From IMG/VR virus record IMGVR_UViG_3300049444_000130: 64,000 nucleotides of DNA; one strand, 5' to 3'. A program made the translations under genes and the position numbers. This DNA comes from a virus. Lineage: Duplodnaviria > Heunggongvirae > Uroviricota > Caudoviricetes. The notes below the pieces were generated by a model. The model worked only from the letters and a program-made list of their open reading frames with translations, ran no database searches and had not been told where the DNA came from. Positions 5,881 to 22,953 of the stretch are shown here, one piece after another. The stretch's first letter is position 1; each line of letters begins with the position of its first letter.

Positions 5881-5891
5881 AGGACACTGCG

Positions 5892-7604
5892 ATGCATCCC
5901 TGGCACCCTCTCCGGCACCCCTGGCTATGCCTGCTGCTCCTGCTCCTGGTCTGCCTTGTGCCTCGTCATGGGACGAGCGCGACCAAGACGGGCCTGATGC
6001 AAGAGGACGCCGGCATTGTCAACGCCCTCAAGTACGGGGCGACCACGACGGCCCGCAATACCACGACGCTCACGGCGGCAGTCGCGGCGATTGGGGCAAC
6101 CCCGAAAACCCTGATGCTCTCTGCGGGCGCCTGGACGCTGACCGCCAATCTCACCATGCCGCCGACGTTGACGCTGTGGGTGCCCCAGGGGAGCACGTTA
6201 GATATCGACAGCGGGCATACGCTCACGCACCAGGGGCCGCTCAAGGTGGACGGCTGCAACCATTTTACGGGGGCCGGGACGATCCTGCTCCCGGCCATTG
6301 CGGAACTCAACGTATGTTGGTTTGGCGCCACGGGGCAACTCGACGTGGACGATACCGCCGCGTTTCAGCGGGCCGCGCGTGCCCTGAACATGACGCCCAC
6401 GGGGGGCCATGCCACGGGCGTGGGCTGTTGTGCGCCGGTCTTCCGCATTCCTGCGGGCTCGTACAAACTCACCGCGCCGATCCAATTTACGCATGGGGTG
6501 TCCATTAAAGGCCACGGCCCCGCCAATACGCTGCTGGTCGCCTTTAATCTGGCCGGGAATACGTTTGAAACGGGGGGCATGAGCGGGACCGCAGCCCGCT
6601 TTGCGGTCGAGGACCTGACCTTCCTAGCGCTCACACCGAAAACGGCAGGGGCCGCCATTCTCGCGAGTACCCCCAATCCGCTCGACGATTCGCAAGTGCA
6701 ACTCTTCATTCACAATGTCTCGTGCCGGGGGCATTTCAACTGCTTTGATCTGCAGAATAGCGCCTATGCCCATATTGTCGACAATATGCTGGAAGACGTG
6801 CGCGGCACGGGCATCGCTATTGCCACCTCCGGCAATCCTGATGCCGGGGACAACGTCATTGCCCATAACGTCATTGCCGGGGCGGCGGGGTCGGTCGGCA
6901 TTAGCGTGCGCACGGCAGGCCAGCGGATCGTCAACAATAAAATCCTGGCCTTTAGTGTGGGCATTAGTGTCGATCCCATCTCCACGACGGTGAATGACAG
7001 CGACATTCTCATTGCCAATAATAGCATCGAACTCCAGGGCACCTTTGGGATTCTCGTCCAAACCAGTGCCCTGGGGGGGCATCTCTACCATCTCCAGATT
7101 ACCAGCAATCAGTTGGCGCTGCTCCAAGGGGGCAGCCCCTCCGCCTCGATTGCCCTGTCCGGGCTGATTTCCTACACGACGATTGCCAATAACCTGATCA
7201 CGATGGCCGCCCAGGAGGGGACCTATGCCATTCTGCTCTCCTCGAATATTCGCGGCGAGACGCCAAGCGGCTGGGCCATTACCGGCAACCATATTGCGGC
7301 CCCGAACCTGACGACGGCCATTGGCATTCAGATCCCCCAGATTACCCCCCTGGAGTATCGCGGGATGGTGATGGGGAACTATGTCACCGGGCTCACAAAG
7401 CCGTATAGCGGCAACACCGCCGCGTTTATCGGGGGGACGTTTACGAGTGCCACCCTCACTGGGTTTGGAGGGCCGGGGTCCATCGTCTATTGCGCGGGCT
7501 GCGGGGTCACCAGCGGGGCCAATAATACCTGTGCGGGCTCAGGGCCGGGTGCCATGGCGATGCTCACGGAAGCCGGGTGGAAGTGTTTCAATAATCAGAA
7601 CTAG
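5892..7604 (+). CDS. secreted right-handed beta-helix (pectate-lyase-like) protein; tailspike/depolymerase-like
   Basis: N-terminal signal peptide. NVCWFGATG motif typical of pectate-lyase-3 domains. Repeated (I/V)xNN(S/K)I beta-helix rungs. The N-terminal ~100 aa are paralogous to those of the 13156..15384 protein. Confidence 0.6.
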   Translation: MHPWHPLRHPWLCLLLLLLVCLVPRHGTSATKTGLMQEDAGIVNALKYGATTTARNTTTLTAAVAAIGATPKTLMLSAGAWTLTANLTMPPTLTLWVPQGSTLDIDSGHTLTHQGPLKVDGCNHFTGAGTILLPAIAELNVCWFGATGQLDVDDTAAFQRAARALNMTPTGGHATGVGCCAPVFRIPAGSYKLTAPIQFTHGVSIKGHGPANTLLVAFNLAGNTFETGGMSGTAARFAVEDLTFLALTPKTAGAAILASTPNPLDDSQVQLFIHNVSCRGHFNCFDLQNSAYAHIVDNMLEDVRGTGIAIATSGNPDAGDNVIAHNVIAGAAGSVGISVRTAGQRIVNNKILAFSVGISVDPISTTVNDSDILIANNSIELQGTFGILVQTSALGGHLYHLQITSNQLALLQGGSPSASIALSGLISYTTIANNLITMAAQEGTYAILLSSNIRGETPSGWAITGNHIAAPNLTTAIGIQIPQITPLEYRGMVMGNYVTGLTKPYSGNTAAFIGGTFTSATLTGFGGPGSIVYCAGCGVTSGANNTCAGSGPGAMAMLTEAGWKCFNNQN

Positions 7605-7670
7605 GGGAACCGTCTGGCCTATTTTGCTCTCGGGGGCGCGTTACAACTGTCGTTTAATCCACACTATCCC

Positions 7671-8186
7671 GTGACCCGGACGCTGGTGGCGCCGCGCCTC
7701 GCCACGCCGGTGGGGGGCGGCGCCAGTCAACTGCGCCGGCGCTACGCGCGGCCCCTCTACCAATTTACACTCAACGAGACCCAGAGCACCCGCGCGGAGG
7801 CGACCGCGTTGCTGGGGTTTCTCACGTTTGTGCAGGGGGATATCCCGTTTTTCTGGAGTGGCGGCGAGTGGGGCACGCAGAATACCCCCCTCCTCGTGGG
7901 CTATGGCGATGGCGTGCGCCAGCAGTTCTTGCTGCCCAACCGGTACATCACGGGAAACCTGGAGGTGCAGGTCAATGGCGTGGCGATCCCGACCCCGGGC
8001 CTCGATGGGGCGACCGGACTCCTCAGCCTCCCCACGATTGCCTGGGGGGCCCTGATCACCGCGACCTATACCTGCACGTACCGCGTGACGCTGTGGCAGG
8101 AGGGCGAGACGCTGGCCACCGAGGAGAATATCGCCCTGGGGCTCTTTCGCCGGCAGGGGATCGTGTTCCGGGAATTTCCGTTCTAG
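7671..8186 (+). CDS. conserved phage tail protein, possibly DUF2460/GTA-gp12-like
   Basis: 171 aa. The gene order here (tape measure, this gene, BR0599-like, NlpC/P60, host specificity) mirrors GTA/HK97-like tails. Sequence-level assignment is not verified. Confidence 0.35.
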   Translation: MTRTLVAPRLATPVGGGASQLRRRYARPLYQFTLNETQSTRAEATALLGFLTFVQGDIPFFWSGGEWGTQNTPLLVGYGDGVRQQFLLPNRYITGNLEVQVNGVAIPTPGLDGATGLLSLPTIAWGALITATYTCTYRVTLWQEGETLATEENIALGLFRRQGIVFREFPF

Positions 8187-8283
8187 GAGGCGTGGGACGA
8201 AAAGTTTCAGTCAAGAGTATATCAGCGCACTCAATCGTCTCGACCAGACGGGCGGATTCTTTTGCGCCGGCATCGCGTTTGAA

Positions 8284-8709
8284 GTGGGGGATGTGGCCGG
8301 CACGACCCTCTACTTTGCGGACGTGCAGACGCCGTTCACGTTCGAGAACCATGCGTACCAGCCGCTCCTCCTGCGCTTTGACGGTCTGAGTCAGGCAAGT
8401 CAGCAGCAGTTGCCGGCGGTCAGTGTGACGGCGCCCAATATTGATGGCCAACTCGGGGCGTGGCTTGAAGTCCATGACGTGTGTGGGCTGATCATTATTC
8501 TGTACCTGTTTCACCTGGACGCAATAGGGCAGGCGACGGAAGCGGATCGGGTCCGGCTCAGTATCCTGGCCGCCGAATGGGATTGGTTGCAAGCAACGTT
8601 GCATTGTGGGTTGGATCTCGGTTTATCTGAGGTGCTCCCAAGAACACTCTATAATGCCCTGGAAGAGCCAGGCAGCCCCGAAGGACTACGCCGTGCCTCC
8701 ATTTTGTGA
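8284..8709 (+). CDS. conserved phage tail protein, possibly DUF2163/BR0599-like (GTA gp13-like)
   Basis: 141 aa from the first ATG. The start may lie upstream at a non-ATG codon. Assignment rests on position only. Confidence 0.3.
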   Translation: MGDVAGTTLYFADVQTPFTFENHAYQPLLLRFDGLSQASQQQLPAVSVTAPNIDGQLGAWLEVHDVCGLIIILYLFHLDAIGQATEADRVRLSILAAEWDWLQATLHCGLDLGLSEVLPRTLYNALEEPGSPEGLRRASIL

Positions 8710-8710
8710 C

Positions 8711-9373: not shown

Positions 9374-9430
9374 CGTCGTCTCCTTTGCCTATGCATTCAT
9401 ACGTCATTACGTAAAGCAGTCTATCAACCC

Positions 9431-10258: not shown

Positions 10259-10643
10259 TCCAGCGCCCGTCCTGGCCGCTCTGCAAGCGCTCGTGCTCCA
10301 GCACGTGCCGTGGTCCCAGGGCGGGCTCGATCCCGCCACGGGGCTGGGGTGCTATGGGCTGGTGGCACTCGCGTTCGCCCAGGTGGGTATCAGCCTCCCC
10401 CCCACGGCGGAGGAGGGGCAGGACTGCTTTACGATGATTCCCCCGCCGTATCAACCGTTTGATGTGGCCCTGATGCGCTTTGCATCCCCGCTGACGGCCC
10501 GGCATGTCGGGGTACTGCTCACCCCGACGACGGGCTACCAATGTTCCTGGCTCACGAACGGGGTGTCACAGTTTTGTATTCACGAGAATATCTGGAAACG
10601 CACCTTTCGGCATGGCTTGCGGTACAAGGAGTTTCTGGGATGA
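10245..10643 (+). CDS. NlpC/P60-family cell-wall peptidase (lambda gpK / GTA gp14-like tail protein)
   Basis: GTG start with a GGAGGG RBS overlapping the upstream stop. A GLGCYGLV catalytic Cys context and a downstream HVGVLL His. The stop overlaps the next gene's ATG (ATGA). Confidence 0.55.
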   Translation: MRLPDPAPVLAALQALVLQHVPWSQGGLDPATGLGCYGLVALAFAQVGISLPPTAEEGQDCFTMIPPPYQPFDVALMRFASPLTARHVGVLLTPTTGYQCSWLTNGVSQFCIHENIWKRTFRHGLRYKEFLG

Positions 10644-13156
10644 GACTCACCGTCACCGCGCCCTTTGACCACGAGCGCCACCTGCAAGTCCCTGCCGTCC
10701 CGGGGCAGACGCTGGGGACCTGGTTCCAGCCCCACGTCTACGAGCACATCACCGCCTGTATGGTCAATGGAGCCTTTCGCGACGACTGGCCGGCCTACGA
10801 GCCCCAGCCCACCGATCACATCCGCCTGTACCTGCGCACCGGCGCGCTCTTTACCCTCGGGGCCACCGCCACCATCTGGGGCATCCTGGCCACTGCCGCC
10901 ATCACCGCCGCCGTCAGTACGGGGGTGTCGATAGGCCTCGGGATGATCATGGGGAAGTTACGGAGCAGCGGGTCGGGGGGAGGCGTCACGCCGCATCAGA
11001 CCGAAGGCAAGGCGGAAAGTGCGTTCGGCATCAGTGGGCGCACCAACACCACGGCCCAGGGCACCCCGAAACCGCTCTGTTACGGCCACCAGCGCGTCTA
11101 TGGGCATATCTTGACGACGCGGGTGGCCCTGGCCGATGAGGGCCGCGCCCTGGCGTTCGGCATCCTGTACAGCCTGGGGGAAGGCCCGGTGGCGTCGGTG
11201 TACAACCCCCAGATTGACGATGTGGACCTCGCCCAGTTTCCGGGAGTCGAGGGGTATTCCCGGCTCGGGGGGGCCGACAATGCCGCGCTCATCCATGCCG
11301 ACTTTGCCACCCTCTCGCAAGTGTGGAGTGATGGACGCCAGCTCCCGCTCGCGCAACCCCTCATCTATCAGACGCGGAGTAGTCGCACGACCAAAATCAC
11401 CCTGTTTCTCTTTCTCCCCTTCCTGCGCACGGCGGAGGGCCTGGCGGCGGGGATGCATTTCCAGGTCGAAGTCCGCGCCATTAATGACCCCACCTGGATT
11501 CTCGCCTCTGCAGCCGTGTTCTGGAGCGGCCTGAGCAACGCGGGGCGCTTCTTCCCGCTCGACTACACGCTGCCCAGCGCCAATCAATGGCTCGTCCGCA
11601 TTACGCTCCTGGATACCACGGTGCAAGAAGGCGTGCTCCCCACGCTCTACGACGTGATGGAAGAGCAAGACGGCAATCCGCTCTATCCCACGCTGGCACT
11701 GTTGGCCATCCGAGGCATCTCCTCGGCGCAGATCCAATCGTTTGACGCCATGCGGGGGTCGGCCATGGTGCAGGGGCGCCTCGTGCCGGTCTGGAACGGG
11801 ACGAGCTTTACGACGCAATGGTCGCAGGGCCGCGCCTGGGTGCTGTACGACCTGCTCACCGAACCCCGGGTCGGGCTCGGGCATCGCCTCGATCCGTCCC
11901 TCATTGATGTCGCCTCGTTCCATTTCGCGCAAGGCTACTGGGATGACCAGGCGGGGGCCAACGTCAACATCGCCCGGGATCGCTGTAACGTGCTCATCAA
12001 TGACCGCCGCCCGGCCTGGGATTGGATCAAACTGCTCCTGGGAGAAGCCCGGGCCGCGCTGATTCCGTCGCAGGGCCTCCTCAAGCTCGTGGTCGATCGC
12101 CCGGGCGAGCCCGGCTTGCTCTACAGTCACCCGGGCAATATCGTGGAAGGCACGGTCCAGGCGAGCCAGGGGAACGGCCAGGGCGTGCGCCCCAACACGA
12201 TCTTCGTCCAATTCCCGGATGAGGTGATTGCCAACCGGCCCCACCTCCTGATCTACCGGGAGCCGGGCAGCGAAAGCGAGCCGCAGCGGGAAGCTCCGGC
12301 GGTGACGCTGGTCAGTCTCAGTGGGTACGAGCATGCGTACTGGATGGCACGCTATACGCTGTTGCGGCAGCGGCTCGTGCAACGGCAGGTAAGTTGGCAC
12401 AGTCCGCTCGGGGCGCTGGTGTCGGAACCATTTGACCATGTGGCCGTGAGTTACGATACGCCCAATTTTGCGCGGGGCACCTCGGGGTTTCTCAGTAGCG
12501 ATAGTACGGTGGACCGCCTGGTGCTCGATCGCCTCGTCACCCTCGAACCCGGCCAGGGCTATACAGTCCTGGTGCGCCATCAGGCCACGAATAGCATGGA
12601 GAGTCGCGCCGTCCTCGGCACCGGCGCGGTCGCCGTGGGGGTGCTGCTCCTCACCGCACCGCTCGGCACGGTGCCCGACGCGGGAGATCTCTACGCGCTC
12701 GGGGTCACCAATACCGCCCTGCACCATCTCGTGCTGGAGCAGGTCACCCAGGACGGAGACCAGGGCTGGCAGCTCGTGGGCGGGGTCTATGCGCCCACCC
12801 TGTATGACTATCCCGTGCCGCCGGCCTCGCCGCTCCCCGCGCCCGCACCGCTCAGTAGCAGTGCCGGGCCGCCGGAGGCACCCCTGCTCGAGGGCGTGGA
12901 AGACACGGAGGGGGGCTTTCTCATGCTGACCTGGAGTCTGCCGGCCGTGCCGGCCGGGGATAGCCTCGTGGGCTTCCACGTGTGGTTTAGCGTCACCGAT
13001 GAGGTGCATTTTCTCTTCTACGGCGATATCGGCATGGAGACGACCATGATTCGGACACTCACCGGGCAGGCCCCAGGCTGGTACGCCGTGCGGGCGCTCA
13101 GTACCCTCGGGGGAGCAGGCCCGCTCTCCAACCACTTTCATGTCGCGGGGATCTGA
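10640..13156 (+). CDS. host specificity / central tail fibre protein (lambda J-like, GTA gp15-like)
   Basis: 838 aa immediately after the NlpC/P60 gene with an ATGA overlap. A large beta-rich protein with a C-terminal FN3-like segment (LTWSLPAVPAGDSLVGFHVWFSV). The track ORF starts further upstream, at 10541. Confidence 0.6.
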   Translation: MRLTVTAPFDHERHLQVPAVPGQTLGTWFQPHVYEHITACMVNGAFRDDWPAYEPQPTDHIRLYLRTGALFTLGATATIWGILATAAITAAVSTGVSIGLGMIMGKLRSSGSGGGVTPHQTEGKAESAFGISGRTNTTAQGTPKPLCYGHQRVYGHILTTRVALADEGRALAFGILYSLGEGPVASVYNPQIDDVDLAQFPGVEGYSRLGGADNAALIHADFATLSQVWSDGRQLPLAQPLIYQTRSSRTTKITLFLFLPFLRTAEGLAAGMHFQVEVRAINDPTWILASAAVFWSGLSNAGRFFPLDYTLPSANQWLVRITLLDTTVQEGVLPTLYDVMEEQDGNPLYPTLALLAIRGISSAQIQSFDAMRGSAMVQGRLVPVWNGTSFTTQWSQGRAWVLYDLLTEPRVGLGHRLDPSLIDVASFHFAQGYWDDQAGANVNIARDRCNVLINDRRPAWDWIKLLLGEARAALIPSQGLLKLVVDRPGEPGLLYSHPGNIVEGTVQASQGNGQGVRPNTIFVQFPDEVIANRPHLLIYREPGSESEPQREAPAVTLVSLSGYEHAYWMARYTLLRQRLVQRQVSWHSPLGALVSEPFDHVAVSYDTPNFARGTSGFLSSDSTVDRLVLDRLVTLEPGQGYTVLVRHQATNSMESRAVLGTGAVAVGVLLLTAPLGTVPDAGDLYALGVTNTALHHLVLEQVTQDGDQGWQLVGGVYAPTLYDYPVPPASPLPAPAPLSSSAGPPEAPLLEGVEDTEGGFLMLTWSLPAVPAGDSLVGFHVWFSVTDEVHFLFYGDIGMETTMIRTLTGQAPGWYAVRALSTLGGAGPLSNHFHVAGI

Positions 13157-15384
13157 TGCAGTTACCTCGATCGCTCCTGCTCGGAGGGCTCTTCCTACTC
13201 GTGCTGGCCCGGGCCAGCACGGCGCAACCCTATGGGCCGCCCTACCATACGCTCAATCAAGAAACCATCGGCATGGTCGACATCGCCCGCTCGCCGTACG
13301 GCACGGCCCTGAATTCCGCCACGTTGGCCGCCGCCGTAACGGCCCAGGGCAGCGCGCCCCATTTGCTCCTCCTCAAGTGCGGCACGTGGACCTTGACCAC
13401 CAGCCAGGTCATCCCCGAGACCTTACGCCTCTGGGTGCCGCTGTGTACGACCGTGACCGTGGGCGCGGGCGCCATCCTCACGCTTCAGGCGCCGCCGCTG
13501 GTGGATCAAGAACAATGGTGGAGCGGTCCAGGCCAGGTGGTCTTGGACTTTGTGGTCACCCCACCTCATACCGCCGTCGGGGCCGCCGGCAGTCTCCAGG
13601 CGGCAGATGGGCTCGGGGGCCTGGCGGCGTATAGTGGGTCAGGCGCCTGTGCCGCAGGCCAGTTTATGTCGGAGCTGCTGCCCACGGGGCTCAAAATCTG
13701 CGGCACGCCGGTCTCCCCCAGTACCACGGGCCATCTGCTCACCGACCGCGTCGAGCCGCTCATTCCCAACGCCATCAATCTGGGCGCCCTCTCCTCCGGC
13801 TTGTTGCGCACGACCACCAGTGGTGGGGTGGCCGCCGTGACCACCGTGCCCCTGCCCGCAGGCGCGCTCGTCGGGACGGACGCGGTACAAACGCTCACCA
13901 ACAAATTTGTGGCCCTGCGCGTCGTGCCCGAGGCGACCAATGTCACGCCCGTCGTGATTGACCTGTCGAATACGGATATGACGGTCATCAGTGAGCTGCT
14001 GCAAAATACGCTGATCACCGATCCCCTCGGCAGCTCCGGGACCGGGCAACTCCTCTGGATGCTCGTGCATTCCACGCTCCCCCGGCTGCTCACCTGGAGT
14101 GCCACGTGGACGGGCGACAGCGGCATCCCGCTCCCCACCACGACCACGGGGGGGAGTACGTTTGATCTGTTCGCGTTCCTCTACAACCCCATCAGCGGCA
14201 AATTGGTGCTCGCCTACAATTCCCAACTCCTGCGGCCCGATCCCGCCTCGGGGGTCACCCCTGGGGCCTACACCTGCCCGGCCACGCTCAGCGTCGATGT
14301 GCATGGGCGGATTACGGCCCTCACGAGTGGCACCTGTGGTGGGAGCAGCGGCACGGCGGCGGGGGTCAAAGGCGATGTGCAGCTCAATGGCGGTGGCGTG
14401 CTCGCAGCGGACACCGGCACGCTCTCGCACGATGTCTCAAGCCACATCACGTATACGCAGGGACTCCAGGCGGGCGCCGGCAGTGGCTATGTGGAGTTGA
14501 CCGATGTCCACGGCTTCAAGGGCTGGCTGTTCCCCAGTGATCTGACCAGCGAGCGGGCCTGGAAGCTTCCCAACACGAGTGGCACGCTGGCGCTCCTCAG
14601 TGACATCACCGCCGGCAGCGGCGCCGCGATTAGCGGGGTCCCGACCACCGGCCAACTGGCGACATGGACCAACGCCACCACGATCCAAGGCGTGACCGCA
14701 CTCCCCGCCGCCAACTTCCCCGCCTTGACGGGGGACGTCACGACGACGGCAGCCAGCCTCACGACCACCATTGCGGCGGGGAGCGTCAGCCTGGCCAAGA
14801 TGGCCAATCTGGCCACCGCCACCCTGATTGGCCGCACCACGGCAGGGACCGGCGTGCCGGAAGCATTGACGGTGCTCCCCGCCGCGCTCGAACCGGCGCA
14901 CACGGGGGACGTGACCAATAGCGCCGGGTCGCTCGCCCTCACCATTGCGGCCAATGCGGTGACGTCCGCCAAGATGGCGGCGGCGAATACCTTCCGCACC
15001 TGTACGATGCTGGCGGGGGTGGACAATGGGCCGGTCTTAGTCGATGCGGACCTGGGACCGCAGCTGCACCAGTGTCTCGTGCCGGTCGCCTCCACCATTG
15101 TGGAAATTGTCGTCTATGCCGATGCCGGCACGCCTAACGTGATTGTTCATCGTCGCACAGGGACGACGAATACTGCGGTCCTCAGCAGTGCCCTGGCGAC
15201 GGCGGCCAGTGGGGCGCTCGCGTGTAGTAAGACGACGGGCGTAGCCGGGATTGCAGGAACGACCTGTAGCGCCACGCTCCAAAATACCACGGTCGGCGCG
15301 GGGGATACGCTGGGGCTCACGAGTGGGAGCGCGGGCGGAGTCGCCAAGCGGATGAGCGTGGCGATTGTCATGACCGTCAACTAG
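13156..15384 (+). CDS. tail fibre-like protein with signal-peptide-like N-terminus
   Basis: 742 aa and Thr/Gly/Ala-rich. Internal repeats LTGDVTTTAASLTTTIAAGSVSLAKMANLAT and HTGDVTNSAGSLALTIAANAVTSAKMAA. The N-terminal domain is paralogous to the 5892 protein. Confidence 0.5.
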   Translation: MQLPRSLLLGGLFLLVLARASTAQPYGPPYHTLNQETIGMVDIARSPYGTALNSATLAAAVTAQGSAPHLLLLKCGTWTLTTSQVIPETLRLWVPLCTTVTVGAGAILTLQAPPLVDQEQWWSGPGQVVLDFVVTPPHTAVGAAGSLQAADGLGGLAAYSGSGACAAGQFMSELLPTGLKICGTPVSPSTTGHLLTDRVEPLIPNAINLGALSSGLLRTTTSGGVAAVTTVPLPAGALVGTDAVQTLTNKFVALRVVPEATNVTPVVIDLSNTDMTVISELLQNTLITDPLGSSGTGQLLWMLVHSTLPRLLTWSATWTGDSGIPLPTTTTGGSTFDLFAFLYNPISGKLVLAYNSQLLRPDPASGVTPGAYTCPATLSVDVHGRITALTSGTCGGSSGTAAGVKGDVQLNGGGVLAADTGTLSHDVSSHITYTQGLQAGAGSGYVELTDVHGFKGWLFPSDLTSERAWKLPNTSGTLALLSDITAGSGAAISGVPTTGQLATWTNATTIQGVTALPAANFPALTGDVTTTAASLTTTIAAGSVSLAKMANLATATLIGRTTAGTGVPEALTVLPAALEPAHTGDVTNSAGSLALTIAANAVTSAKMAAANTFRTCTMLAGVDNGPVLVDADLGPQLHQCLVPVASTIVEIVVYADAGTPNVIVHRRTGTTNTAVLSSALATAASGALACSKTTGVAGIAGTTCSATLQNTTVGAGDTLGLTSGSAGGVAKRMSVAIVMTVN

Positions 15385-15395
15385 GGAGACGTTCT

Positions 15396-15902
15396 ATGCG
15401 TCGAGGGTATCTACTCCTCTTGGTGCTGGTGTGGGGGCCGGGGGTCTGGGCAGACTGTACGCCGCAACAACTCCAGACCGCCCTCACCACGGAAACGCCG
15501 GCACCGCCCGTGAGTCTGGGCCTCACAGCCTTCACCGCAGGCGCCACGCGCAATGATGCGCAACTGGTCTTCCTCATGAATCAGGCGCGTAGCGGCGCGT
15601 TCTACGAACAAAACGCGGGCATCATTCCGGCCTATGCCATTGTGCGGGCCTTTGACCCCAATGAGTACGGGGGCCTCACCGCCGCCAAGTATCAAGCCCT
15701 GAGTCCACTGCTCGCACCAGGGCTTGTGGATACGAGCAATGACAATGTGCGCACGATCCTGGGAGCGATTTTCCCGGCAAGCGGTCCCACACGGGCGGCC
15801 CTCATCCTCTTGAGTAAACGGCCAGGGTCCTATGCCGAGGTCGTGTGCGGCAGGCCGGTCACACTGGAAGAGGTGACCATCGCCCTGGGGGTGACGCCAT
15901 GA
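15396..15902 (+). CDS. secreted hypothetical protein
   Basis: Signal peptide MRRGYLLLLVLVWGPGVWA. 168 aa. Confidence 0.4.
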   Translation: MRRGYLLLLVLVWGPGVWADCTPQQLQTALTTETPAPPVSLGLTAFTAGATRNDAQLVFLMNQARSGAFYEQNAGIIPAYAIVRAFDPNEYGGLTAAKYQALSPLLAPGLVDTSNDNVRTILGAIFPASGPTRAALILLSKRPGSYAEVVCGRPVTLEEVTIALGVTP

Positions 15903-16429
15903 AGCAGCGGTCCTCTCTCCTCCACGGATTTTTGGCCACCATGCTCCTCATCGCCTGGTACGTGTCCCCAAGTTGGGGCGCGGCTGTGGTCACTACCTGG
16001 AAACGGGGCGCCGTCGATACCTGGCTGACCAACTCGACCGATGTCACCAATAACAGTCTCATTCTCAGTAGTGCCATTACCATTACGAACACAGGCTATA
16101 CCTTCGCAGAGTGCCAGATCTTTGTGAATAGTTTTAGTGGCACCGTTACGGCGAATACGGCGATTAGTGTCTGGCTGTTGACGGAAGTGGACGGGACCAA
16201 TTATGACGATGGAGGGACGTCGGTCACCCCGGCACGCCTCCCGGACATCGTGTTTCCGCTCCGGGCGGTCTCCACGGCACAACGCGTCGGGGTGAAGAAT
16301 GTCCAAGTCCCAGCAGGACTGTTTAAGGCTTTGGTGAAAAACGATGGGACCGGGGTCACGATGCAAGGGAGTACGGGTGGTGTTCCGTGGACTTTAAAGT
16401 GTGTGCCTCAGACTACTCAGAGCCAGTAA
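15899..16429 (+). CDS. secreted hypothetical protein
   Basis: Start ATG overlaps the upstream stop (ATGA). Signal peptide MKQRSSLLHGFLATMLLIAWYVSPSWGAA. Beta-rich. Confidence 0.4.
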   Translation: MKQRSSLLHGFLATMLLIAWYVSPSWGAAVVTTWKRGAVDTWLTNSTDVTNNSLILSSAITITNTGYTFAECQIFVNSFSGTVTANTAISVWLLTEVDGTNYDDGGTSVTPARLPDIVFPLRAVSTAQRVGVKNVQVPAGLFKALVKNDGTGVTMQGSTGGVPWTLKCVPQTTQSQ

Positions 16430-16437
16430 GGAGACGC

Positions 16438-17397
16438 ATGCGACGACTCCAACTCTGCTTGCTTCTGCTTCTGCTCCTGCCAGGGGGACTTTGCGCCCAG
16501 CGCCCGAACCTGGATGGAGCGCCGCCCAGCGCCAGTGGCGTACTCGATACGCGCCATCCGATCCGACGTCAGCACCCCCTCGCCCGGGGCTTGATCGGTG
16601 CCTGGCGCGTCGTGCCCGGCCTCAGTGGCGGGGTGATGCTCTATGACCTTATGGGCCAGGTACACGGCACGCTCACCGGCATGACGACGGCGGTGACCAC
16701 CGGCTGGAATGGCACGGCCAGGCCGGGCGGGGATGGGGAGTTGCGCTTCAACAATACCGCCGCGACCGTCGCCCTGGGCGCGCCAGCCAGTCTCAACCTC
16801 ACGGGGGTGATGTCGCTCTTTGTCTGGGCCAAGCCCCACCTCCTCGTCTTTGGTGGGGGCGGCGGGGATCCCCTCGTCAGCTATGGCGAGAGTGCCAGCC
16901 CGGACGAGCCCTATGGCCTGCTGATCGGTCGGGCCGATAACGCGGTGAGTGTCCGATGGAACGATACCGATGTCCTCGTGAGTAGCGCGAGCATCCCGAC
17001 GATTGACCGCTGGTACCATGTCGGGTTTACCCGCAGCGGCAGTAGTGGGAGCTGGCCGACGGTCGTCTATGCCAATGGCGTGTCCATTGGCTCGGCCACG
17101 GTCACGACCAATCCTGCCGGAGTCGCCGGCGCCGGCGTGCTCAATTTTGGCAAGCGCGGCGCCGCGGGGGCCTTCCTCGACGGCGCCCTCGATGAAATCC
17201 TCATTTACAACCGGGCCCTCTCCGCACAGGAAGCCTACACCCTCTATGTCCTATCGGCACAAGGGCTCCCCGGCTTGCTCAACCGGGTGCTGCCGCTGGC
17301 CGTCGCCGGGTCGGGCGTCGTGCCCATGCCACGCAAGCCCGTCCAATGGAATTGGCTCCTCGACTCATTCTGGAGGTATGCATATGTCCCTGACTAA
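16438..17397 (+). CDS. secreted LamG (concanavalin A-like lectin) domain protein
   Basis: Signal peptide MRRLQLCLLLLLLLPGGLCAQ. The C-terminus WYHVGFTRSG...FLDGALDEILIYNRALSAQEAYTLY is the classic Laminin_G_3 signature. Confidence 0.55.
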   Translation: MRRLQLCLLLLLLLPGGLCAQRPNLDGAPPSASGVLDTRHPIRRQHPLARGLIGAWRVVPGLSGGVMLYDLMGQVHGTLTGMTTAVTTGWNGTARPGGDGELRFNNTAATVALGAPASLNLTGVMSLFVWAKPHLLVFGGGGGDPLVSYGESASPDEPYGLLIGRADNAVSVRWNDTDVLVSSASIPTIDRWYHVGFTRSGSSGSWPTVVYANGVSIGSATVTTNPAGVAGAGVLNFGKRGAAGAFLDGALDEILIYNRALSAQEAYTLYVLSAQGLPGLLNRVLPLAVAGSGVVPMPRKPVQWNWLLDSFWRYAYVPD

Positions 17398-18874
17398 ACG
17401 ACTCGCTCTGCTCCTTGTCGTGCTGCTTCTCAGCGTGCCCTGTGTCTTTGGGCAAGGCGTGGGCCAGCGTGGCACCACGTCTGTCGGCTTTGCCCCCAAC
17501 GAAACGAGTACCGGCACGACCCAGTACCTGCTCGCCAAGATTGTCGCCGGCAAGGCGATCAAGGCCCTGACGACCGATACCGCCATCCCGCTCTATGTGG
17601 TGGTGTCGAGTACCGCCATTACGGGCGATGCGGTGTATGTGGTCGCCGGGACCACCTCCTGTGTCATGGACGCCACCAACGCCAGCGGCATGTCGAACCT
17701 GCCCGTGGTCGCCAGTGTGACGACCGCAGGGCGGTGCCATGTGCAGGCGAGTCTGCCCGCAGCCGGGTGGATTGTCGGCACGATGGTGGATGACGCCACG
17801 ACTTCTGGAAGCTTGGGGAAGATCAATGGGTTTACCGTGCCGTCGTTCCCCGCCGCAGGGGCCGGCAGTGGCACGGTCACCAGCGCCGCATTGAGTATGC
17901 CGGCGGAGTTTACGGTGAGTGGTTCCCCGGTCACGACGGCAGGCACCCTCACCGCCACGAAGGCCAACGCCGCGACGAACTGCGTCATGGCCGGGCCAGC
18001 CTCGGGGGGGGCGGCGCCCTGGGCCTGTCGCGGGCTGGTGGCGGCGGACCTTCCAGGCGGCGGCAGTCCCCCCACGGGCACGGCAGCAGGGGATCTGGGA
18101 GGCACGTATCCCAACCCTACGGTGCTGAAAGCGAGCGGTGTCTGGGCGCTGACGGGGGATACGACGCCGACCACGCTCACGGGGGATTTGAACGATGCCA
18201 ACCTGGCCGGCTTTACGACCAATAGCGTGATCCGCATTGATGGCGGCGCCGTCGAGCGCATCATTACCGGGTTGGTCGCCACGGCGCGCGGCGATATCAA
18301 GATCATCAAAAACGTGGGGACGCAGCAGCCGATCCTGTTTCCCAATGAGAATGCGAACTCGACGGCGGTGAATCGATTCCACTTCCCCGGTGACATCTCC
18401 CTCTTGCCCGGCGATGCTCAGCCCATGCAATACGATACCACGCTGAACCGCTGGACCCCGTTTGGGCCGGCGGCGCTCCATGTCTATCGCTGGCGGCCCT
18501 GCAACCTGGGCGCCGGCTCCCCCGACCCCAGTGCGGCGCCCCTCTCCGCGACGGATGCCCTCAACGAGGCGTGCCCGAATGACTACGGACGCGATCTGGA
18601 ACTCATGGCCCTCTCCTGTCGGGCCAACAATACCGGCGTGGTCATTACGCCCATCCTGACGGGAGGGTCGAGCACCAGCATCCTGACTGGCCCGCTCACG
18701 TGTGGCAATGCGACCTGGGCGGACGGCACGGTGCAAACGACGCGGCCCGTCCTGCACACCTACAGCGGCACGGGCAATACGTGCGCGGTCACGCCGTGTT
18801 CGATGGCGGTCACGTGGACGACGACGGGCCTGGCGAGTGAGGTGCAAATCAAAATACGGATGCGACTGAAATAA
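17384..18874 (+). CDS. secreted hypothetical protein (fibre/adhesin-like)
   Basis: A GGAGG RBS followed by the signal peptide MSLTKRLALLLVVLLLSVPCVFGQG. Thr/Gly-rich. The track ORF extends upstream in the same frame (17003). Confidence 0.4.
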   Translation: MSLTKRLALLLVVLLLSVPCVFGQGVGQRGTTSVGFAPNETSTGTTQYLLAKIVAGKAIKALTTDTAIPLYVVVSSTAITGDAVYVVAGTTSCVMDATNASGMSNLPVVASVTTAGRCHVQASLPAAGWIVGTMVDDATTSGSLGKINGFTVPSFPAAGAGSGTVTSAALSMPAEFTVSGSPVTTAGTLTATKANAATNCVMAGPASGGAAPWACRGLVAADLPGGGSPPTGTAAGDLGGTYPNPTVLKASGVWALTGDTTPTTLTGDLNDANLAGFTTNSVIRIDGGAVERIITGLVATARGDIKIIKNVGTQQPILFPNENANSTAVNRFHFPGDISLLPGDAQPMQYDTTLNRWTPFGPAALHVYRWRPCNLGAGSPDPSAAPLSATDALNEACPNDYGRDLELMALSCRANNTGVVITPILTGGSSTSILTGPLTCGNATWADGTVQTTRPVLHTYSGTGNTCAVTPCSMAVTWTTTGLASEVQIKIRMRLK

Positions 18875-18900
18875 CCCATGAAAACAATCGGGAGCGCAAA

Positions 18901-20757
18901 GTGGTGCGTCATAACAACACATGGACTCGTCTCACGCTGGCCCTTCTCTTGCTCCTATGGTTTAGTCACTCAGCGTACTGTCTGGAATATTTTGTATCGA
19001 CAGGAGGGAGCAACGCCAATTCCTGCACCGCCGCCAGAACGGTCAGTACGGCCAAGCGGGATATCAACAACGCCACGGGCTGCCTCGCCAGCGGCGATAC
19101 CGTCACTGTGAAAGCAGGGCTCTACGCCGAAGGCAATGTTCAGCTTCCGTCCGGCTCCGCCGGCGCCCCCACCACGATCCGCGCGGCCCCGGGGGAAACG
19201 GTCACGCTCCAGCCCAATAATATTAGTATCGACCAGATTATCAAACTGAACACCGGTCAGAGCTATATTACGATTGACGGCCTGATTCTTGACGCCGGCA
19301 GCCCCACCGGCACGCGCCTGTCCTTTGGCACGGTCGTCAATCAGGACCACGACAGCCCCTCCGGGCATCACTTCACGGTCAAAAACTGTGAGGTGAAGAA
19401 TGGGCGGCATCAGGGGCTCCACATTGCCGGCGCGAACTGGACGGTGGAGAATAACCATATTCACCACAACGGCACCGACGTGGATCTCGATCACGGGATC
19501 TATTTTTCGGCCCACGATAGCCTCGTGAAGAATAACAACATTCATGACAATCGCTGTTTTGGCATCCAGAACTACTCCAGCACCTTCACGAACGTGAACA
19601 ATAACACCTACATCGGCAATACGTTTACGGCCAATGGCTGTGGCGTCGTCATCTCCCAGGGCAGTGGACACCTGTTCATGAACAATGTCATGCATCACGA
19701 CGCCACGCGGGGGACCGTCCCGGCCTTTCGGTGTTGCTCCGATGGGAAGTACTATAACAACACCATCGTGAATAATGTCGGGAGTTCCGGGCTGGAGGGC
19801 TATGGTCCCACCCTGGGCAGTGGTGTGATCATCAAGAACAATATTATCTGTGGCAATAATGGCGCCCAGATTGGCAGCACCGGCGCCACGATGAGCAATA
19901 ACCTGACCACCTGTCCGACGTTCGTCAATAGTGGGGCGAACGACTACCACCTGGTGACCGGCAGTGCGGCGTTAGGCGCGGGAACCACGCTGACCGAGGT
20001 CACGACCGACAAAGACGGCGTGCCACGCCCGCAACCGCCCGGGGGCGTCTATGACATTGGCGCCTACGAGGGCACGGGCAGCGGGGGGCCGCCGCCTGAT
20101 CCCCCGCTCGCCGAGCAGATGTTCGCGCGATGGACGCTCGATGAGGGCACGGGGACGAGCGCGGCGGATGCCACGGGCAATGGCCGCACGGGGACGCTCT
20201 CCGCCAGTGGGCTGTGGAGTCCAGGCCGGGTCGGGAAATTTGCTATTACCATGGGCGTCACCGATATGCTGACCGCTCCCACACTCTGGCCCCTCACGGC
20301 CTATACGTGGGCCTTCTGGCTCAAGGCGGCGACGGCGCCCACGGTCGGCGTGGGGGAAGAGACGCAGCCGTTCTTTTACGGCGCGCAAGCCACGCCGGCG
20401 TTTTGGTTCAGCTGGTCGCATGTGACCGTCGGGGCCGATCAAGCCGCGGCGCAGCAAGATACGGGTGGGGGGAATACCCGGGCGCGCATTGGCAGCACCC
20501 TCCTGGCGAATCGATGGTATCATCTGGCCGCGACGTGGGACGGCACCACGCTGAAACACTACCTCAATGGCGTGCTGCAAGCGTCCACCGCCATCTCGAC
20601 CATGTTCACGCCCGTGGGGCCGGTGTCGGTCGGAAATGGGTTTGTAGGGAGCGTAGATGACGTGCGGCTGTATAACTTCCCCCTCGATGGGGCGGCCATC
20701 CTGGTGCTGTACCGGCAGAGTGCGGGCATGCCTCGGCACAGAATGAGTATGCGATAA
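18901..20757 (+). CDS. secreted right-handed beta-helix protein with C-terminal LamG domain
   Basis: Signal peptide. Repeated NN(N/T)xIxxN rungs typical of the pectin-lyase fold. A C-terminal LamG signature: WYHLAATWDGTTLKHYLNGV...GSVDDVRLYNFPLDGAAILVLY. Confidence 0.5.
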   Translation: MVRHNNTWTRLTLALLLLLWFSHSAYCLEYFVSTGGSNANSCTAARTVSTAKRDINNATGCLASGDTVTVKAGLYAEGNVQLPSGSAGAPTTIRAAPGETVTLQPNNISIDQIIKLNTGQSYITIDGLILDAGSPTGTRLSFGTVVNQDHDSPSGHHFTVKNCEVKNGRHQGLHIAGANWTVENNHIHHNGTDVDLDHGIYFSAHDSLVKNNNIHDNRCFGIQNYSSTFTNVNNNTYIGNTFTANGCGVVISQGSGHLFMNNVMHHDATRGTVPAFRCCSDGKYYNNTIVNNVGSSGLEGYGPTLGSGVIIKNNIICGNNGAQIGSTGATMSNNLTTCPTFVNSGANDYHLVTGSAALGAGTTLTEVTTDKDGVPRPQPPGGVYDIGAYEGTGSGGPPPDPPLAEQMFARWTLDEGTGTSAADATGNGRTGTLSASGLWSPGRVGKFAITMGVTDMLTAPTLWPLTAYTWAFWLKAATAPTVGVGEETQPFFYGAQATPAFWFSWSHVTVGADQAAAQQDTGGGNTRARIGSTLLANRWYHLAATWDGTTLKHYLNGVLQASTAISTMFTPVGPVSVGNGFVGSVDDVRLYNFPLDGAAILVLYRQSAGMPRHRMSMR

Positions 20758-20795: not shown

Positions 20796-20807
20796 AAGGG
20801 ATACGGT

Positions 20808-22461: not shown

Positions 22462-22953
22462 ATGCGTAACCGCCTTCTCCTCCTCATCTTGGCGCTCCTC
22501 GTGCTGCGCATTGGCACAGCACGAGCGCAAGTGACCGACACGAACACGGCCCCCGATGGCCGCACCACGACCCACAATATGGACTGCATGGGCAACATGT
22601 GGCTCTGGACGCAGTGGACCATCTTCACGGACGCGGGCCGGGGGGGCCGCCGCGTCATCCGGTTTGTGCAGGACTGCGTCTCCACCGAGGGGCACCCTTC
22701 GACGGCCAACCGGGACAACTGGCCCACCCTGACCCTCCGCGATGGCAACGTCAAGGCTATCTGGGTCGAGGGCTTCAGTCACTTTGCCCAGGCCATCCCC
22801 GGCGCTGTCGCCCAGTTCTGGCCGTTCCGCTTCGAGCAACGCGCCGACCGTATAGATTTTCCGGTCTTTACGGGCGATGAACCCGCGACAGACGAGCAGC
22901 ACGAGCAGACCAGCTACGCGAGCATCTATTTTTTCGCCAGCAGGCCCAGGTAA
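22462..22953 (+). CDS. secreted hypothetical protein
   Basis: Signal peptide MRNRLLLLILALLVLRIGTARAQ. 163 aa. Confidence 0.4.
   Translation: MRNRLLLLILALLVLRIGTARAQVTDTNTAPDGRTTTHNMDCMGNMWLWTQWTIFTDAGRGGRRVIRFVQDCVSTEGHPSTANRDNWPTLTLRDGNVKAIWVEGFSHFAQAIPGAVAQFWPFRFEQRADRIDFPVFTGDEPATDEQHEQTSYASIYFFASRPR

What the first reader, a model, noticed from the sequence alone, without database searches (positions are those of the whole stretch)
5892..20757. Tail region rich in signal-peptide-bearing beta-helix and LamG proteins sharing a swapped N-terminal module
Eight consecutive + strand proteins start with canonical Sec signal peptides (5892, 13156, 15396, 15899, 16438, 17384, 18901; also 22462), which is atypical for virion fibres. 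Two carry LamG domains and two carry pectin-lyase-fold beta-helices. The beta-helix protein (5892) and the fibre-like protein (13156) share a paralogous ~100-aa N-terminal module (..TLTAAVAAIGATPKTLMLSAGAWTLTANLTMPPTLTLWVP.. vs ..TLAAAVTAQGSAPHLLLLKCGTWTLTTSQVIPETLRLWVP..). This suggests module shuffling of a common anchoring domain. They may be virion-associated depolymerases or lectins, or a secreted cargo set hitch-hiking in the late operon.
Basis: partly seen in the sequence, partly recalled or inferred. Interest (0 to 1): 0.55.

Follow-up and report, generated by a model that had tools for sequence, protein, structure and literature searches.

The report
Phage tail fibres carrying export signals
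An uncultured lambda-like phage encodes its tail-fibre, tailspike and lectin-like proteins with secretion signals and paired cysteines, which suggests they fold outside the cytoplasm; that is unexpected for parts of a virus particle built inside the cell.

Summary
Exactly eight of 22 ORFs in the tail and lysis region (starts 5892, 13156, 15396, 15899, 16438, 17384, 18901, 22462) have a charged n-region, a hydrophobic h-region and an AXA-like c-region, each behind a Shine-Dalgarno site. Chance expectation is below one (P about 1e-7). The core tail proteins (tape measure, M/L/K-like, I/J) have none. They are not eight in a row: six are consecutive after J, and two lie apart.

LamG domains (16438, 18901), beta-helices (5892, 18901) and the shared N-module (39% identity over 122 aa, E 6e-17) are confirmed.

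New evidence:
- The signal-bearing proteins carry even-numbered, pairwise-conserved cysteines. The core tail proteins carry almost none.
- Signal-bearing relatives recur in four other diverged phage contigs; one of them (J 26% identical) keeps the cassette order.
- The genes are packed tightly behind J.
- The N-module is a widespread, divergent copy of the N-terminal cap of pectate-lyase-3 tailspikes. About half of its relatives carry signals.

Best reading: these are late-expressed, Sec-exported, disulfide-stabilised host-surface-binding proteins. Export is likely (about 0.8). Whether they join virions at lysis or act free is unresolved. I found no published precedent for tailed phages. The closest analogue is the Bdellovibrio MAT fibre family. 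This is a new variant of a known kind; interest 0.62.

The parts
5892..7604 (+). Signal-bearing tailspike-like beta-helix protein (570 aa). Predicted signal is residues 1-30 (nt 5892-5981, TSA|T). N-module is about residues 33-137 (nt 5988-6302). Canonical pectate-lyase-3 cap plus right-handed beta-helix is residues 138-570.
   Evidence: SD AAGGA. Heuristic signal peptide. PF13229 E 5.5e-7; PF12708 E 1.5e-5, just below its cut-off. AF2 mean pLDDT 76.9: helix 10-21, disordered 21-39, then beta-helix. Foldseek hits: AlgE4/AlgE6 epimerases and Sf6/CBA120 tailspikes, and phage 'pectate lyase superfamily' proteins at E 4e-12. Ten mature Cys; 122/142, 278/284 and 534/537/547/565 are conserved in homologues.
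13156..15384 (+). Signal-bearing tail-fibre-like protein (742 aa). Predicted signal is residues 1-23 (nt 13156-13224, STA|Q). N-module is about residues 33-135 (nt 13252-13560). It continues with a conserved shaft and a C-terminal beta-sandwich tip.
   Evidence: The ATG overlaps the J stop codon. N-module is 39% identical to that of 5892. Seventeen homologues were found; those with complete N-termini carry signals. Five conserved Cys pairs. Weak DUF5907 fibre repeat. Partial match to a hypothetical protein of Rhodobacter phage RcZahn. AF2 model is poor except for the N-module and residues 255-355.
15396..15902 (+). Small signal-bearing protein (168 aa, VWA|D) with 2 mature Cys and no family match.
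   Evidence: An ORF of similar size at the same position carries a signal in L007. The positional counterpart in L010 has none. BLASTP found no significant similarity to either.
15899..16429 (+). Small signal-bearing protein (176 aa, SWG|A) with 2 mature Cys; probably beta-rich.
   Evidence: ORFs at the same cassette position in L007 and L010 also carry signals. BLASTP found no significant similarity to them.
16438..17397 (+). Signal-bearing LamG (Laminin_G_3) protein (319 aa, LCA|Q) with no Cys.
   Evidence: PF13385 E 1.2e-17. SD AAGGAG. The L007 homologue is 27.5% identical and has its own signal.
17384..18874 (+). Signal-bearing second fibre-like protein (496 aa, VFG|Q) with 10 mature Cys.
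   Evidence: SD GGAGG. The L007 homologue is 51% identical and has a signal. Residues 270-366 match annotated 'tail fiber protein' genes of uncultured Caudoviricetes.
18901..20757 (+). Signal-bearing beta-helix plus LamG protein (618 aa) with 9 or 10 mature Cys, depending on the cleavage site.
   Evidence: PF13229 E 1.1e-15, NosD E 1.2e-10, PF13385 E 2.3e-16. NCBIfam choice-of-anchor Q domain at residues 345-390, 36.3 bits against a cut-off of 25.
22462..22953 (+). Signal-bearing 163-aa protein (ARA|Q) inside the presumed lysis and membrane-protein cluster; 2 mature Cys; no family match.
   Evidence: SD AAGGAG..
482..3352 (+). Context: tape measure protein. No signal, 0 Cys.
   Evidence: PF20155 TMP_3..
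3356..5158 (+). Context: 600-aa repeat protein directly after the tape measure. No signal, 2 Cys. Its homologue sits directly upstream of the signal-bearing beta-helix gene in an unrelated tail type. It is a candidate docking partner; this is inference only.
   Evidence: BLASTP to L003_8551, E 2e-13, several repeats. Gene order.
10640..13156 (+). Context: fused tail-assembly-I / central-fibre-J protein (838 aa from this start). No signal, 3 Cys, ends in an FN3-like domain and has no recognisable receptor-binding tip.
   Evidence: phrog_31 E 9e-51 and phrog_32..

Best explanation
The eight ORFs are late phage genes whose products are made as precursors with cleavable Sec-type signal peptides. 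They are exported across the inner membrane of a probably diderm host and fold in the periplasm with structural disulfide bonds. Together they form the phage's host-surface toolkit: two trimeric-fibre-like proteins, two polysaccharide-active or polysaccharide-binding beta-helices, two LamG lectin domains, and small partners.

Their N-terminal modules are interchangeable. The one shared by 5892 and 13156 is a stand-alone copy of the N-terminal cap of pectate-lyase-3 tailspikes. My preferred mechanism is inferred, not shown. The tail is assembled in the cytoplasm without these proteins. They mature in the oxidising periplasm. They meet the tail tip only when the holin and lysis system breaches the membrane, and they dock through their N-terminal modules.

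Probabilities for each step:
- Real translated N-termini: about 0.9.
- Exported and disulfide-bonded: about 0.8.
- Late co-expression with J: about 0.8.
- Incorporation into virions after export: about 0.4.

The confidence of 0.4 given for this explanation refers to the whole chain, including the last step.
For: Signal architecture is found in exactly these 8 of 22 ORFs, P about 1e-7, with SD sites. As an internal control, in the T4SS cluster of the same window the Pfam TraU-family protein (60209) and two further ORFs (50637; 56558, weak TraH) carry signals of the same style, and 12 early-region ORFs do not.

Cysteine signature: mature Cys counts are 10, 10, 2, 2, 0, 10, 9 or 10, 2. The tape measure has 0 and J has 3. 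The pairs are conserved and module-specific in homologues, while distant signal-less fibres P0015 and P0016 have 0 and 1 Cys. Family-wide, signal-bearing members are 50 even to 15 odd (binomial p 1.6e-5) and signal-less members 37 to 29 (p 0.39), Fisher p 0.016. The genuinely signal-less 'MPHM' subgroup has about 0.3% Cys.

The signal is conserved in property but not in sequence in homologues from four other contigs: L003, L007, L010 and L011. In L007 the cassette order is kept although J is only 26% identical.

The genes overlap or abut from the J stop codon onward. Promoter-like and terminator-like motifs in 5000-24000 are at chance level overall, with a few weak terminator-like matches inside the cassette. 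GC3 is like that of the tail genes.

18901 carries a choice-of-anchor Q domain; from my own knowledge, not checked here, this domain is typical of surface proteins.

For virion docking: the two different proteins share one N-module. Signal-less relatives carry the same module at their extreme N-terminus. J here lacks a recognisable receptor-binding tip, and every fibre or tailspike candidate in the window and in L003 bears a signal.

F-type T4SS genes on the same contig suggest a diderm host with a periplasm.
Against: - No dedicated signal-peptide predictor and no experiment were available.
- The host is unknown. The nearest named TraC homologue is only 52% identical, from a Ca. Tectimicrobiota MAG.
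- Cys content as a percentage does not differ significantly between signal-bearing and signal-less family members (p 0.15).
- The C-terminal CxxC...C...C cluster of 5892 could be a zinc site rather than disulfides.
- The positional counterpart of the first small protein lacks a signal in L010.
- Post-lysis attachment of fibres has no precedent that I could find. It would have to compete with dilution at lysis.
- The N-module resembles a structural beta-helix cap, not a known virion-binding domain.
- L007 also has a signal-less S74 fibre, so the cassette may be accessory.
Confidence: 0.4

Rival explanations
1. The proteins are exported but never part of the virion. They act as free or envelope-bound factors. 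They might strip or bind the host's surface polysaccharide from the periplasmic side or after release, which would help progeny escape and stop re-adsorption to debris. Alternatively they might mask receptors to exclude superinfection.
For: Signals and the disulfide signature. The beta-helix resembles secreted alginate epimerases and lyases and RbmB as closely as it resembles tailspikes. LamG and choice-of-anchor Q domains are, from my own knowledge, typical of secreted surface proteins. L007 has a conventional signal-less S74 fibre as well. No known virion-binding domain was detected.
Against: Lysis alone would release soluble enzymes, so a signal is not needed for that role. A Sec signal reaches only the periplasm of a diderm, not the capsule. 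Two fibre-type proteins match annotated tail fibres and share an N-terminal module with signal-less tailspike relatives. In the window and in L003 no signal-less receptor-binding candidate is left for the virion.
Confidence: 0.3
2. These are ordinary cytoplasmic tail fibres. Either the hydrophobic N-termini are not used as signals (not translated, or serving as assembly or trimerisation helices), or translation starts downstream, as the public gene calls assume.
For: Prodigal-type calls in JGI records start at M36 (5892), V16 (13156), L9 (15396) and L52 (16438). 5892 has an in-frame ATG inside the conserved LMQED motif that would keep almost the whole module.
Against: The upstream starts have the better SD sites and leave no intergenic gaps. 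Downstream starts in 13156 and 16438 would delete conserved residues. Unrelated signal sequences with the same n/h/c design precede the module in dozens of relatives. The positive n-region predicts translocation of the C-terminal bulk. The even-numbered Cys bias tracks the signal.
Confidence: 0.12
3. The cassette benefits the host. It would be expressed from the prophage to display fibre adhesins and lectins on the cell surface, as Bdellovibrio MAT fibres are, rather than serving phage infection.
For: The architecture of signal, conserved beta-rich N-domain, fibre and swapped tips equals that of MAT proteins (PMC10769870). The element sits near an integrase and a conjugation system.
Against: No own promoter or terminator signal was found above chance. 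The start of 13156 overlaps the J stop codon. Composition matches the tail genes. 5892 lies inside the tail-tip gene block. The cassette follows J in every related contig where the upstream genes are visible.
Confidence: 0.1

Closest known systems
Phage tailspike depolymerases of the pectate-lyase superfamily (Sf6, P22, CBA120 TSPs; 'pectate lyase superfamily protein' of uncultured Caudovirales)
   Same: Right-handed beta-helix fold: Foldseek E 4e-12 to 1e-10 against BFVD phage proteins and 5e-6 against the Sf6 tailspike. PF13229 and PF12708 signals. Encoded in the tail gene block. The N-module is homologous to the PF12708 N-terminal cap.
   Different: Known tailspikes fold and trimerise in the cytoplasm and have no signal peptide. 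These carry a cleavable-looking signal and conserved Cys pairs. No known particle-binding N-domain was detected. There is no sequence match to any isolated phage.
Bdellovibrio bacteriovorus MAT (mosaic adhesive trimer) fibres (Caulton et al. 2024, PMC10769870)
   Same: A signal peptide is immediately followed by a conserved beta-rich N-terminal domain of about 100-130 aa, then a phage-like trimeric fibre with interchangeable tips. Disulphides occur in tip domains. An S74 fibre is adjacent in relative L007.
   Different: MATs are chromosomal genes of a predator and sit on its cell surface. Here the genes are packed directly behind the phage's J gene. Homology of the N-domains was not tested because no MAT N-domain sequence was available to the tools.
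Lambda-type side tail fibres encoded downstream of J (Stf/Tfa)
   Same: Fibre genes with small partner genes lie directly after the central-fibre gene J, in the late operon.
   Different: No sequence or profile similarity was found. Stf and Tfa are cytoplasmic and have no signal.
Secreted beta-helix polysaccharide enzymes (AlgE4/AlgE6 mannuronan C-5 epimerases, alginate epimerase/lyase 8ja4, Vibrio RbmB)
   Same: These are the best solved-structure matches of the 5892 model (E 4e-8 to 3e-5). They act outside the cytoplasm.
   Different: Only 13-19% identity. Catalytic residues were not examined. They are not phage-encoded.
Phage proteins already known to use the Sec pathway (secretory and SAR endolysins, o-spanin lipoproteins, superinfection-exclusion lipoproteins, filamentous-phage coat proteins). 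Listed from my own knowledge.
   Same: Phage-encoded proteins with N-terminal export signals, some expressed late.
   Different: Apart from the coat proteins of filamentous (non-tailed) phages, which are virion parts, none is a virion protein, and none is a fibre, tailspike or lectin-type protein of a tailed phage. 22462, inside the lysis-like cluster, may belong to this ordinary class, but it has no family match.

Membership tests
Sec-type (signal peptidase I) signal peptide | Positively charged n-region, an uncharged hydrophobic h-region of about 8-20 aa, and small residues at -3/-1 within a few residues after it | tested here: met
   All eight pass and 14 neighbouring ORFs fail. The null rate is 3-4%.
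Sec-type (signal peptidase I) signal peptide | Recognition by a trained predictor, or demonstrated cleavage and export | not testable with these tools
   No SignalP or DeepTMHMM was available. Indirect support comes from the even-numbered, pair-conserved Cys.
Sec-type (signal peptidase I) signal peptide | Not a lipoprotein (no lipobox) and not a Tat signal (no S/T-R-R-x-F-L-K with a mild h-region) | tested here: inconclusive
   No lipobox in any of the eight. 15396 and 16438 start with MRR, but the motif is incomplete and the h-regions are very Leu-rich, which favours Sec (read).
Pectate-lyase-superfamily beta-helix (tailspike-like) | Pfam Beta_helix or Pect-lyase_RHGA_epim above the gathering score | tested here: met
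   5892: PF13229 29.8 bits (cut-off 25.9); PF12708 25.3 bits (cut-off 27, just below). 18901: PF13229 58 bits.
Pectate-lyase-superfamily beta-helix (tailspike-like) | Right-handed parallel beta-helix fold | tested here: met
   AF2 mean pLDDT 76.9. Foldseek probability 1.0 to epimerases and tailspikes.
Pectate-lyase-superfamily beta-helix (tailspike-like) | Homotrimer attached to the virion, with depolymerase activity | not testable with these tools
   No multimer prediction, proteomics or assay was possible.
Laminin_G_3 (LamG / concanavalin-A-like lectin) | PF13385 above the gathering score | tested here: met
   16438: 64.9 bits. 18901: 60.7 bits. The cut-off is 27.6.
Lambda-like central tail fibre J (context gene 10640-13156) | Profile match to J and I families, positioned after a K-like NlpC/P60 gene | tested here: met
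   phrog_31 E 9e-51 and phrog_32 E 2.7e-8. NLPC_P60 is weak on the preceding ORF.
DUF5907 / DUF2793 phage fibre repeats | Pfam match above threshold | tested here: not met
   PF19264 at E 0.017, 15.7 bits against a cut-off of 27 in 13156. Distant homologues P0015-P0019 carry PF19264 or PF10983, so the relation is remote only.
Bdellovibrio MAT fibres | Signal peptide followed directly by a conserved beta-rich N-domain, then a fibre with a variable tip | tested here: met
   The architecture is seen in 13156 and its homologues. The definition comes from PMC10769870.
Bdellovibrio MAT fibres | Sequence or structural homology of the N-domain; location on the cell surface | not tested
   No MAT N-domain sequence or structure is held by the tools.

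The most novel reading that the evidence does not exclude
A lineage of uncultured siphophages matures its receptor-binding fibres and tailspikes outside the cytoplasm. The proteins would be Sec-exported, oxidatively folded in the periplasm, and added to cytoplasmically built tails only when lysis mixes the two compartments. That would be a two-compartment assembly route not described for tailed phages. It would also be a plausible evolutionary source of signal-bearing, phage-like cell-surface fibres such as the Bdellovibrio MATs.
Probability: 0.33. Interest if true: 0.85.

Novelty: new variant of a known kind. Interest (0 to 1): 0.62.

Why it matters
Tailed-phage particles are thought to be built entirely in the cytoplasm. 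Receptor-binding proteins that carry export signals and disulfide signatures would break that rule, or would define a new class of late, exported phage accessory proteins.

There are practical consequences:
- Automated gene callers clipped the signals in four of the eight public records. Pipelines that predict receptor-binding proteins or depolymerases may therefore miss or mis-start such genes.
- Heterologous expression would need periplasmic targeting.
- Disulfide-stabilised fibres could be useful scaffolds.
- The cassette gives a phage-borne counterpart to the signal-bearing, tip-swapping fibre adhesins of predatory bacteria.

The question is directly testable, by virion proteomics and export-reporter fusions, once a host or a synthetic system exists.

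Tried and rejected
- Host identification failed. Two genome-contig scans (J, TraC) found no relatives. There are no tRNA genes in the window. TraC is only about 25% identical to plasmid TraC proteins. The nearest named homologue is a Ca. Tectimicrobiota MAG at 52% identity. Sample accessions appear in no paper.
- IMG/VR scans with the fibre and with an N-module alignment found nothing.
- A metagenome scan with the fibre alignment found nothing. The last scan gave only three short contigs, two of them from Hainich groundwater.
- No isolated phage matches 5892, 18901 or the N-module consensus.
- The PDB sequence searches tried (13156, 17384, the N-module profile) were empty.
- The AF2 model of the 13156 monomer was too poor (pLDDT 50) to search with. 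AFDB50 was unavailable.
- hhalign of the N-module against the second cap copy was weak (probability 19%). The claim of a tandem duplication therefore rests mainly on the profile hits to canonical PF12708 N-termini and on secondary-structure order.
- Rejected: lipoprotein signals, because there is no lipobox.
- Rejected: Tat export, because the RR motif is inconsistent and the h-regions are very hydrophobic.
- Rejected: a foreign moron island, because composition matches the tail genes and the genes are tightly packed behind J.
- The promoter and terminator scan showed nothing above chance.
- Three literature searches found no report of Sec signals on tailed-phage fibres.

Full report
**Setting.** The window has about 63% G+C. 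Its first 23.7 kb is a lambda-like siphovirus tail module on the + strand. In order it holds:
- the tape measure, 482-3352 (PF20155);
- a 600-aa repeat protein, 3356-5158;
- a coiled-coil ORF, 5509-5880;
- the beta-helix ORF, 5892-7604;
- M-like and L-like ORFs, 7671-8186 and 8284-8709;
- a minus-strand ORF, 8711-9373;
- a sulfotransferase-like ORF, 9455-10258;
- a K-like NlpC/P60 ORF, 10293-10643;
- a fused I/J central-fibre ORF ending at 13156 (phrog_31 E 9e-51; distant tblastn hits to lambda-, N15- and T1-like J genes).

After J come six tightly packed ORFs (13156 to 20757). Then come a 52-aa double-membrane-span ORF, three membrane or coiled-coil ORFs, and ORF 22462. The tape measure and a TraC gene further along the window lie on the same 92,804-bp JGI metagenome contig.

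**Checking the observation.** I wrote a signal-peptide heuristic. It requires n-region net charge of at least +1, an uncharged hydrophobic stretch of at least 9 residues, and small residues at -3/-1.
- The same test passes 2.9% of internal windows of these proteins and 3.9% of composition-random sequences. Fewer than one hit is expected, and P(>=8 of 22) is about 1e-7.
- Every one of the eight starts sits 6-13 nt behind a Shine-Dalgarno-like site. 13156 and 15899 overlap the stop codon of the preceding gene.
- As an internal control, the conjugation cluster in the same window offers a comparison: the TraU-family protein (60209) and two further ORFs (50637, which has no family match; 56558, a weak TraH match) have the same Leu-rich, AXA-ended signals, whereas none of 12 early-region ORFs does.
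- Laminin_G_3 is present in 16438 and 18901, and Beta_helix in 5892 and 18901.
- The shared N-module is real: 39% identity over 122 residues, E 6e-17.
- The wording 'eight consecutive' is loose. Six are consecutive, 5892 lies six genes upstream, and 22462 lies four ORFs downstream.

**Are the hydrophobic N-termini translated?** Public gene calls skip four of them. P0001 starts at M36 of 5892, P0004 at V16 of 13156, and the other two are called as 160-aa and 268-aa products.
- The downstream starts have poorer ribosome-binding sites, open intergenic gaps and, in 13156 and 16438, delete residues conserved in homologues.
- Homologues from other contigs have unrelated N-terminal sequences with the same n/h/c design. 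Examples are P0002 (MFCRLVSVCLVVLFSLLPVTLIA|Q), P0003, P0009, P0010, P0012 and P0013.
- P0005, apparently signal-less, has an SD-preceded GTG 33 nt upstream that restores MRRYAYGTLLSCLCLILMLSPSASA.
- The L011 fibre also has a signal.

**Independent evidence for export: cysteines.**
- After the predicted cleavage sites the eight proteins have 10, 10, 2, 2, 0, 10, 9 or 10, and 2 cysteines. The tape measure has 0, J has 3 in 838 residues, and the 600-aa protein has 2.
- In homologues the cysteines recur as short-range pairs that belong to individual modules. An example is 157/175, 369/389, 480/486, 603/611 and 643/667 in P0009. Distant signal-less fibres that share only the repeat region (P0015, P0016) have 0 and 1.
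- In the 5892 family the pairs 278/284 and 534/537/547/565 are invariant. The pair 122/142 comes and goes with the N-module.
- Among 136 representative N-module proteins, 68 have signals. Those are 50 even to 15 odd (binomial p 1.6e-5). The 68 without signals are 37 to 29 (p 0.39), with Fisher p 0.016 between the groups.
- A clearly signal-less subgroup beginning MPHM has about 0.3% Cys.
- From my own knowledge, an even-number Cys bias is a recognised mark of exported, disulfide-bonded bacterial proteins.
- Two caveats apply. Overall Cys percentage does not differ significantly (p 0.15). The CxxC...C...C cluster at the C-terminus of 5892 could bind zinc.

**Conservation in related phages.** Both searched families are rare in the word-indexed 5.8-billion-protein search: three homologues of 5892 and 17 of 13156.
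- L007 (63% G+C) is a siphophage whose J is only 26% identical to the window's. Its order is J, a signal-less Peptidase_S74 fibre, then five ORFs that all carry signals: a fibre (44% identical in the shaft), two small ORFs, LamG (27.5%), and a 17384-like protein (51%).
- L003 (50% G+C) has a different, GTA/phiJL001-like tail. It carries two adjacent signal-plus-N-module beta-helix genes.
- L010 and L011 place a beta-helix gene of the 5892 family next to a signal-bearing fibre; its signal is visible in L011, while in L010 its N-terminus lies off the contig.
- The signals are therefore a stable property of these protein families, not an accident of one genome.

**What the N-module is.** A profile of four N-modules, without the signals, was searched against 1.84 billion representative proteins. 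It found 2507 proteins at E <= 1e-3 and 468 at E <= 1e-10.
- Many begin with a signal that ends just before a conserved K-R-x-L-L-Q-E-D-x-G-x-V-N start. Others begin at that same point without a signal.
- A groundwater contig shows the signal form.
- Canonical pectate-lyase-3 N-termini (YGAKGDGTTDD...) are also hit. In P0074 and P0138 the matched stretch overlaps PF12708 profile positions 2-58.
- The AF2 model of 5892 has mean pLDDT 76.9. It shows a low-confidence helix (10-21), a disordered linker (21-39), and the N-module (40-135). The module has the same strand, short-helix, helix, rungs order as the canonical cap at 138-230.
- Direct profile-profile comparison of the two copies is weak (probability 19%).
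- I conclude that the module is a divergent, portable copy of the tailspike N-cap. It is widely shuffled in front of different beta-helices and fibres. Whether it anchors anything is not shown.
- The fibre family also swaps its other end. There are two alternative C-terminal tips and at least three alternative N-modules around a conserved shaft.

**What the proteins look like.**
- The 5892 model matches secreted mannuronan epimerases (AlgE4, AlgE6), an alginate epimerase/lyase, RbmB, and the Sf6 and CBA120 tailspikes.
- It matches 'pectate lyase superfamily' proteins of uncultured tailed phages best (E 4e-12, TM up to 0.61).
- 13156 and 17384 share short segments with a hypothetical protein of Rhodobacter phage RcZahn and with annotated tail fibres of spring-water phages.
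- 18901 contains a choice-of-anchor Q domain, which from my own knowledge is typical of surface proteins.
- The small proteins and 22462 match nothing.

**Expression context.** From the J stop codon to 20757 the genes overlap or are separated by at most 26 nt. Promoter-like and terminator-like motifs are at chance level. GC3 (0.72-0.81) matches the tail genes. This argues for late co-expression with J and against a lysogeny-expressed moron island.

**Mechanism.**
- Shown: signal-like N-termini, domain content, module sharing, the cysteine pattern, recurrence in related contigs and tight gene packing.
- Inferred with good support (about 0.8): Sec export, cleavage, and oxidative folding in a periplasm. 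The F-type T4SS genes TraE, TrbI/TraB, TraU and TraC on the same contig suggest a diderm host.
- Inferred with modest support (about 0.4): after export the proteins dock to the tail at lysis. The arguments for this are as follows. Two different proteins share one N-terminal module. Signal-less relatives carry the same module at the N-terminus. J lacks a recognisable receptor-binding tip. In the window and in L003 no signal-less fibre or tailspike candidate remains. The 600-aa protein after the tape measure travels with the signal-bearing beta-helix gene in an unrelated tail type, so it could be the dock.
- The main rival (about 0.3) is that they are exported but act free or on the envelope, in escape, anti-readsorption or exclusion.
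- Less likely: the signals are unused (0.12), or the cassette serves the lysogen as surface adhesins (0.1).

**Comparison with the known.** By fold and domain these are tailspike, fibre and LamG proteins, so they are members of known superfamilies. What differs is the export signal plus the disulfide signature on tail-operon fibre proteins of a tailed phage. Three full-text searches found no description of that. [quoted passage not shown] Homology to MAT N-domains could not be tested.

**Verdict.** This is a new variant of a known kind, and it would be of real interest if the export, and especially post-export virion attachment, is borne out.

Noticed in passing
window 49188-61519 (+), with 43110-43982: An F-type conjugation (T4SS) gene set lies on the same 92.8-kb contig as the phage. 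It comprises TraE (50004-50603), a possible TraK-like ORF (50637-51365, no family match), TrbI/TraB (51362-52582), TraC (53027-55576), a TraH-like ORF (56558-57823, weak) and TraU (60209-61519). A tyrosine recombinase at 43110-43982 separates it from the phage. This could be a prophage next to an integrative conjugative element, or a phage-conjugative hybrid.
   Followed up: partly
window 8711-9373 (-): This is the only minus-strand ORF inside the tail-tip gene block. It has a ribbon-helix-helix-like N-terminus, then a hydrophobic stretch ending in a lipobox-like LLSC, and a faint BamE match (E 0.2). It has its own AAGGAG site. It is conserved in the near-identical JGI contigs (L001, L004-L006). 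It may be a moron or exclusion lipoprotein.
   Followed up: partly
window 9455-10258 (+): A sulfotransferase-like ORF sits between the L-like and K-like tail genes. It has a PRSGTS P-loop-like start and a PF00685 match at E 1.5e-4, just under the cut-off. That is an odd place for a modifying enzyme.
   Followed up: no
window 3356-5158 (+); L003 8551-9999: The 600-aa protein after the tape measure has internal repeats (GTWYVSPDG..., GTTWYLWMDG..., GGTWYLGVDV...). It is homologous to a 482-aa protein that sits directly upstream of the signal-bearing beta-helix gene in a phage with a different (GTA/phiJL001-like) tail. The two genes seem to travel together.
   Followed up: partly
window 20758-20966 (+): A perfect 20-nt tandem repeat (GCAAGCTTGCAAGCAAGGAA, twice), containing the palindrome GCAAGCTTGC, lies directly after the 18901 stop codon. 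It is followed by a 52-aa ORF with two hydrophobic spans (20808-20966), which is holin-like. No recognisable endolysin was found in 20.8-23.4 kb.
   Followed up: no
window 24427-25472 (-): The JGI precomputed Pfam hits on the identical contig L008 place a Band_7 protein (about 24427-25044) and an Acb2/Tad1-hairpin protein (25104-25472) here. The second is a likely anti-CBASS/Thoeris sponge.
   Followed up: no
window 5892, 13156, 15396, 16438 starts; proteins P0001, P0004, P0005: Automated gene calls in public metagenome records start downstream of the signal peptides in four of the eight genes, and also in P0005. Database copies of this family therefore under-report signals.
   Followed up: yes
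window 21486-22016 (+): A multi-span membrane ORF in the lysis-like cluster has a precomputed match to ETR1_N, the ethylene-receptor N-terminal transmembrane domain (PF25487).
   Followed up: no
L012, L014 (metagenome contigs named Hain-H14-01um): Close relatives of the signal-plus-N-module proteins come from contigs whose names point to the Hainich groundwater wells (0.1-um fraction). That is a habitat hint for this phage group.
   Followed up: no
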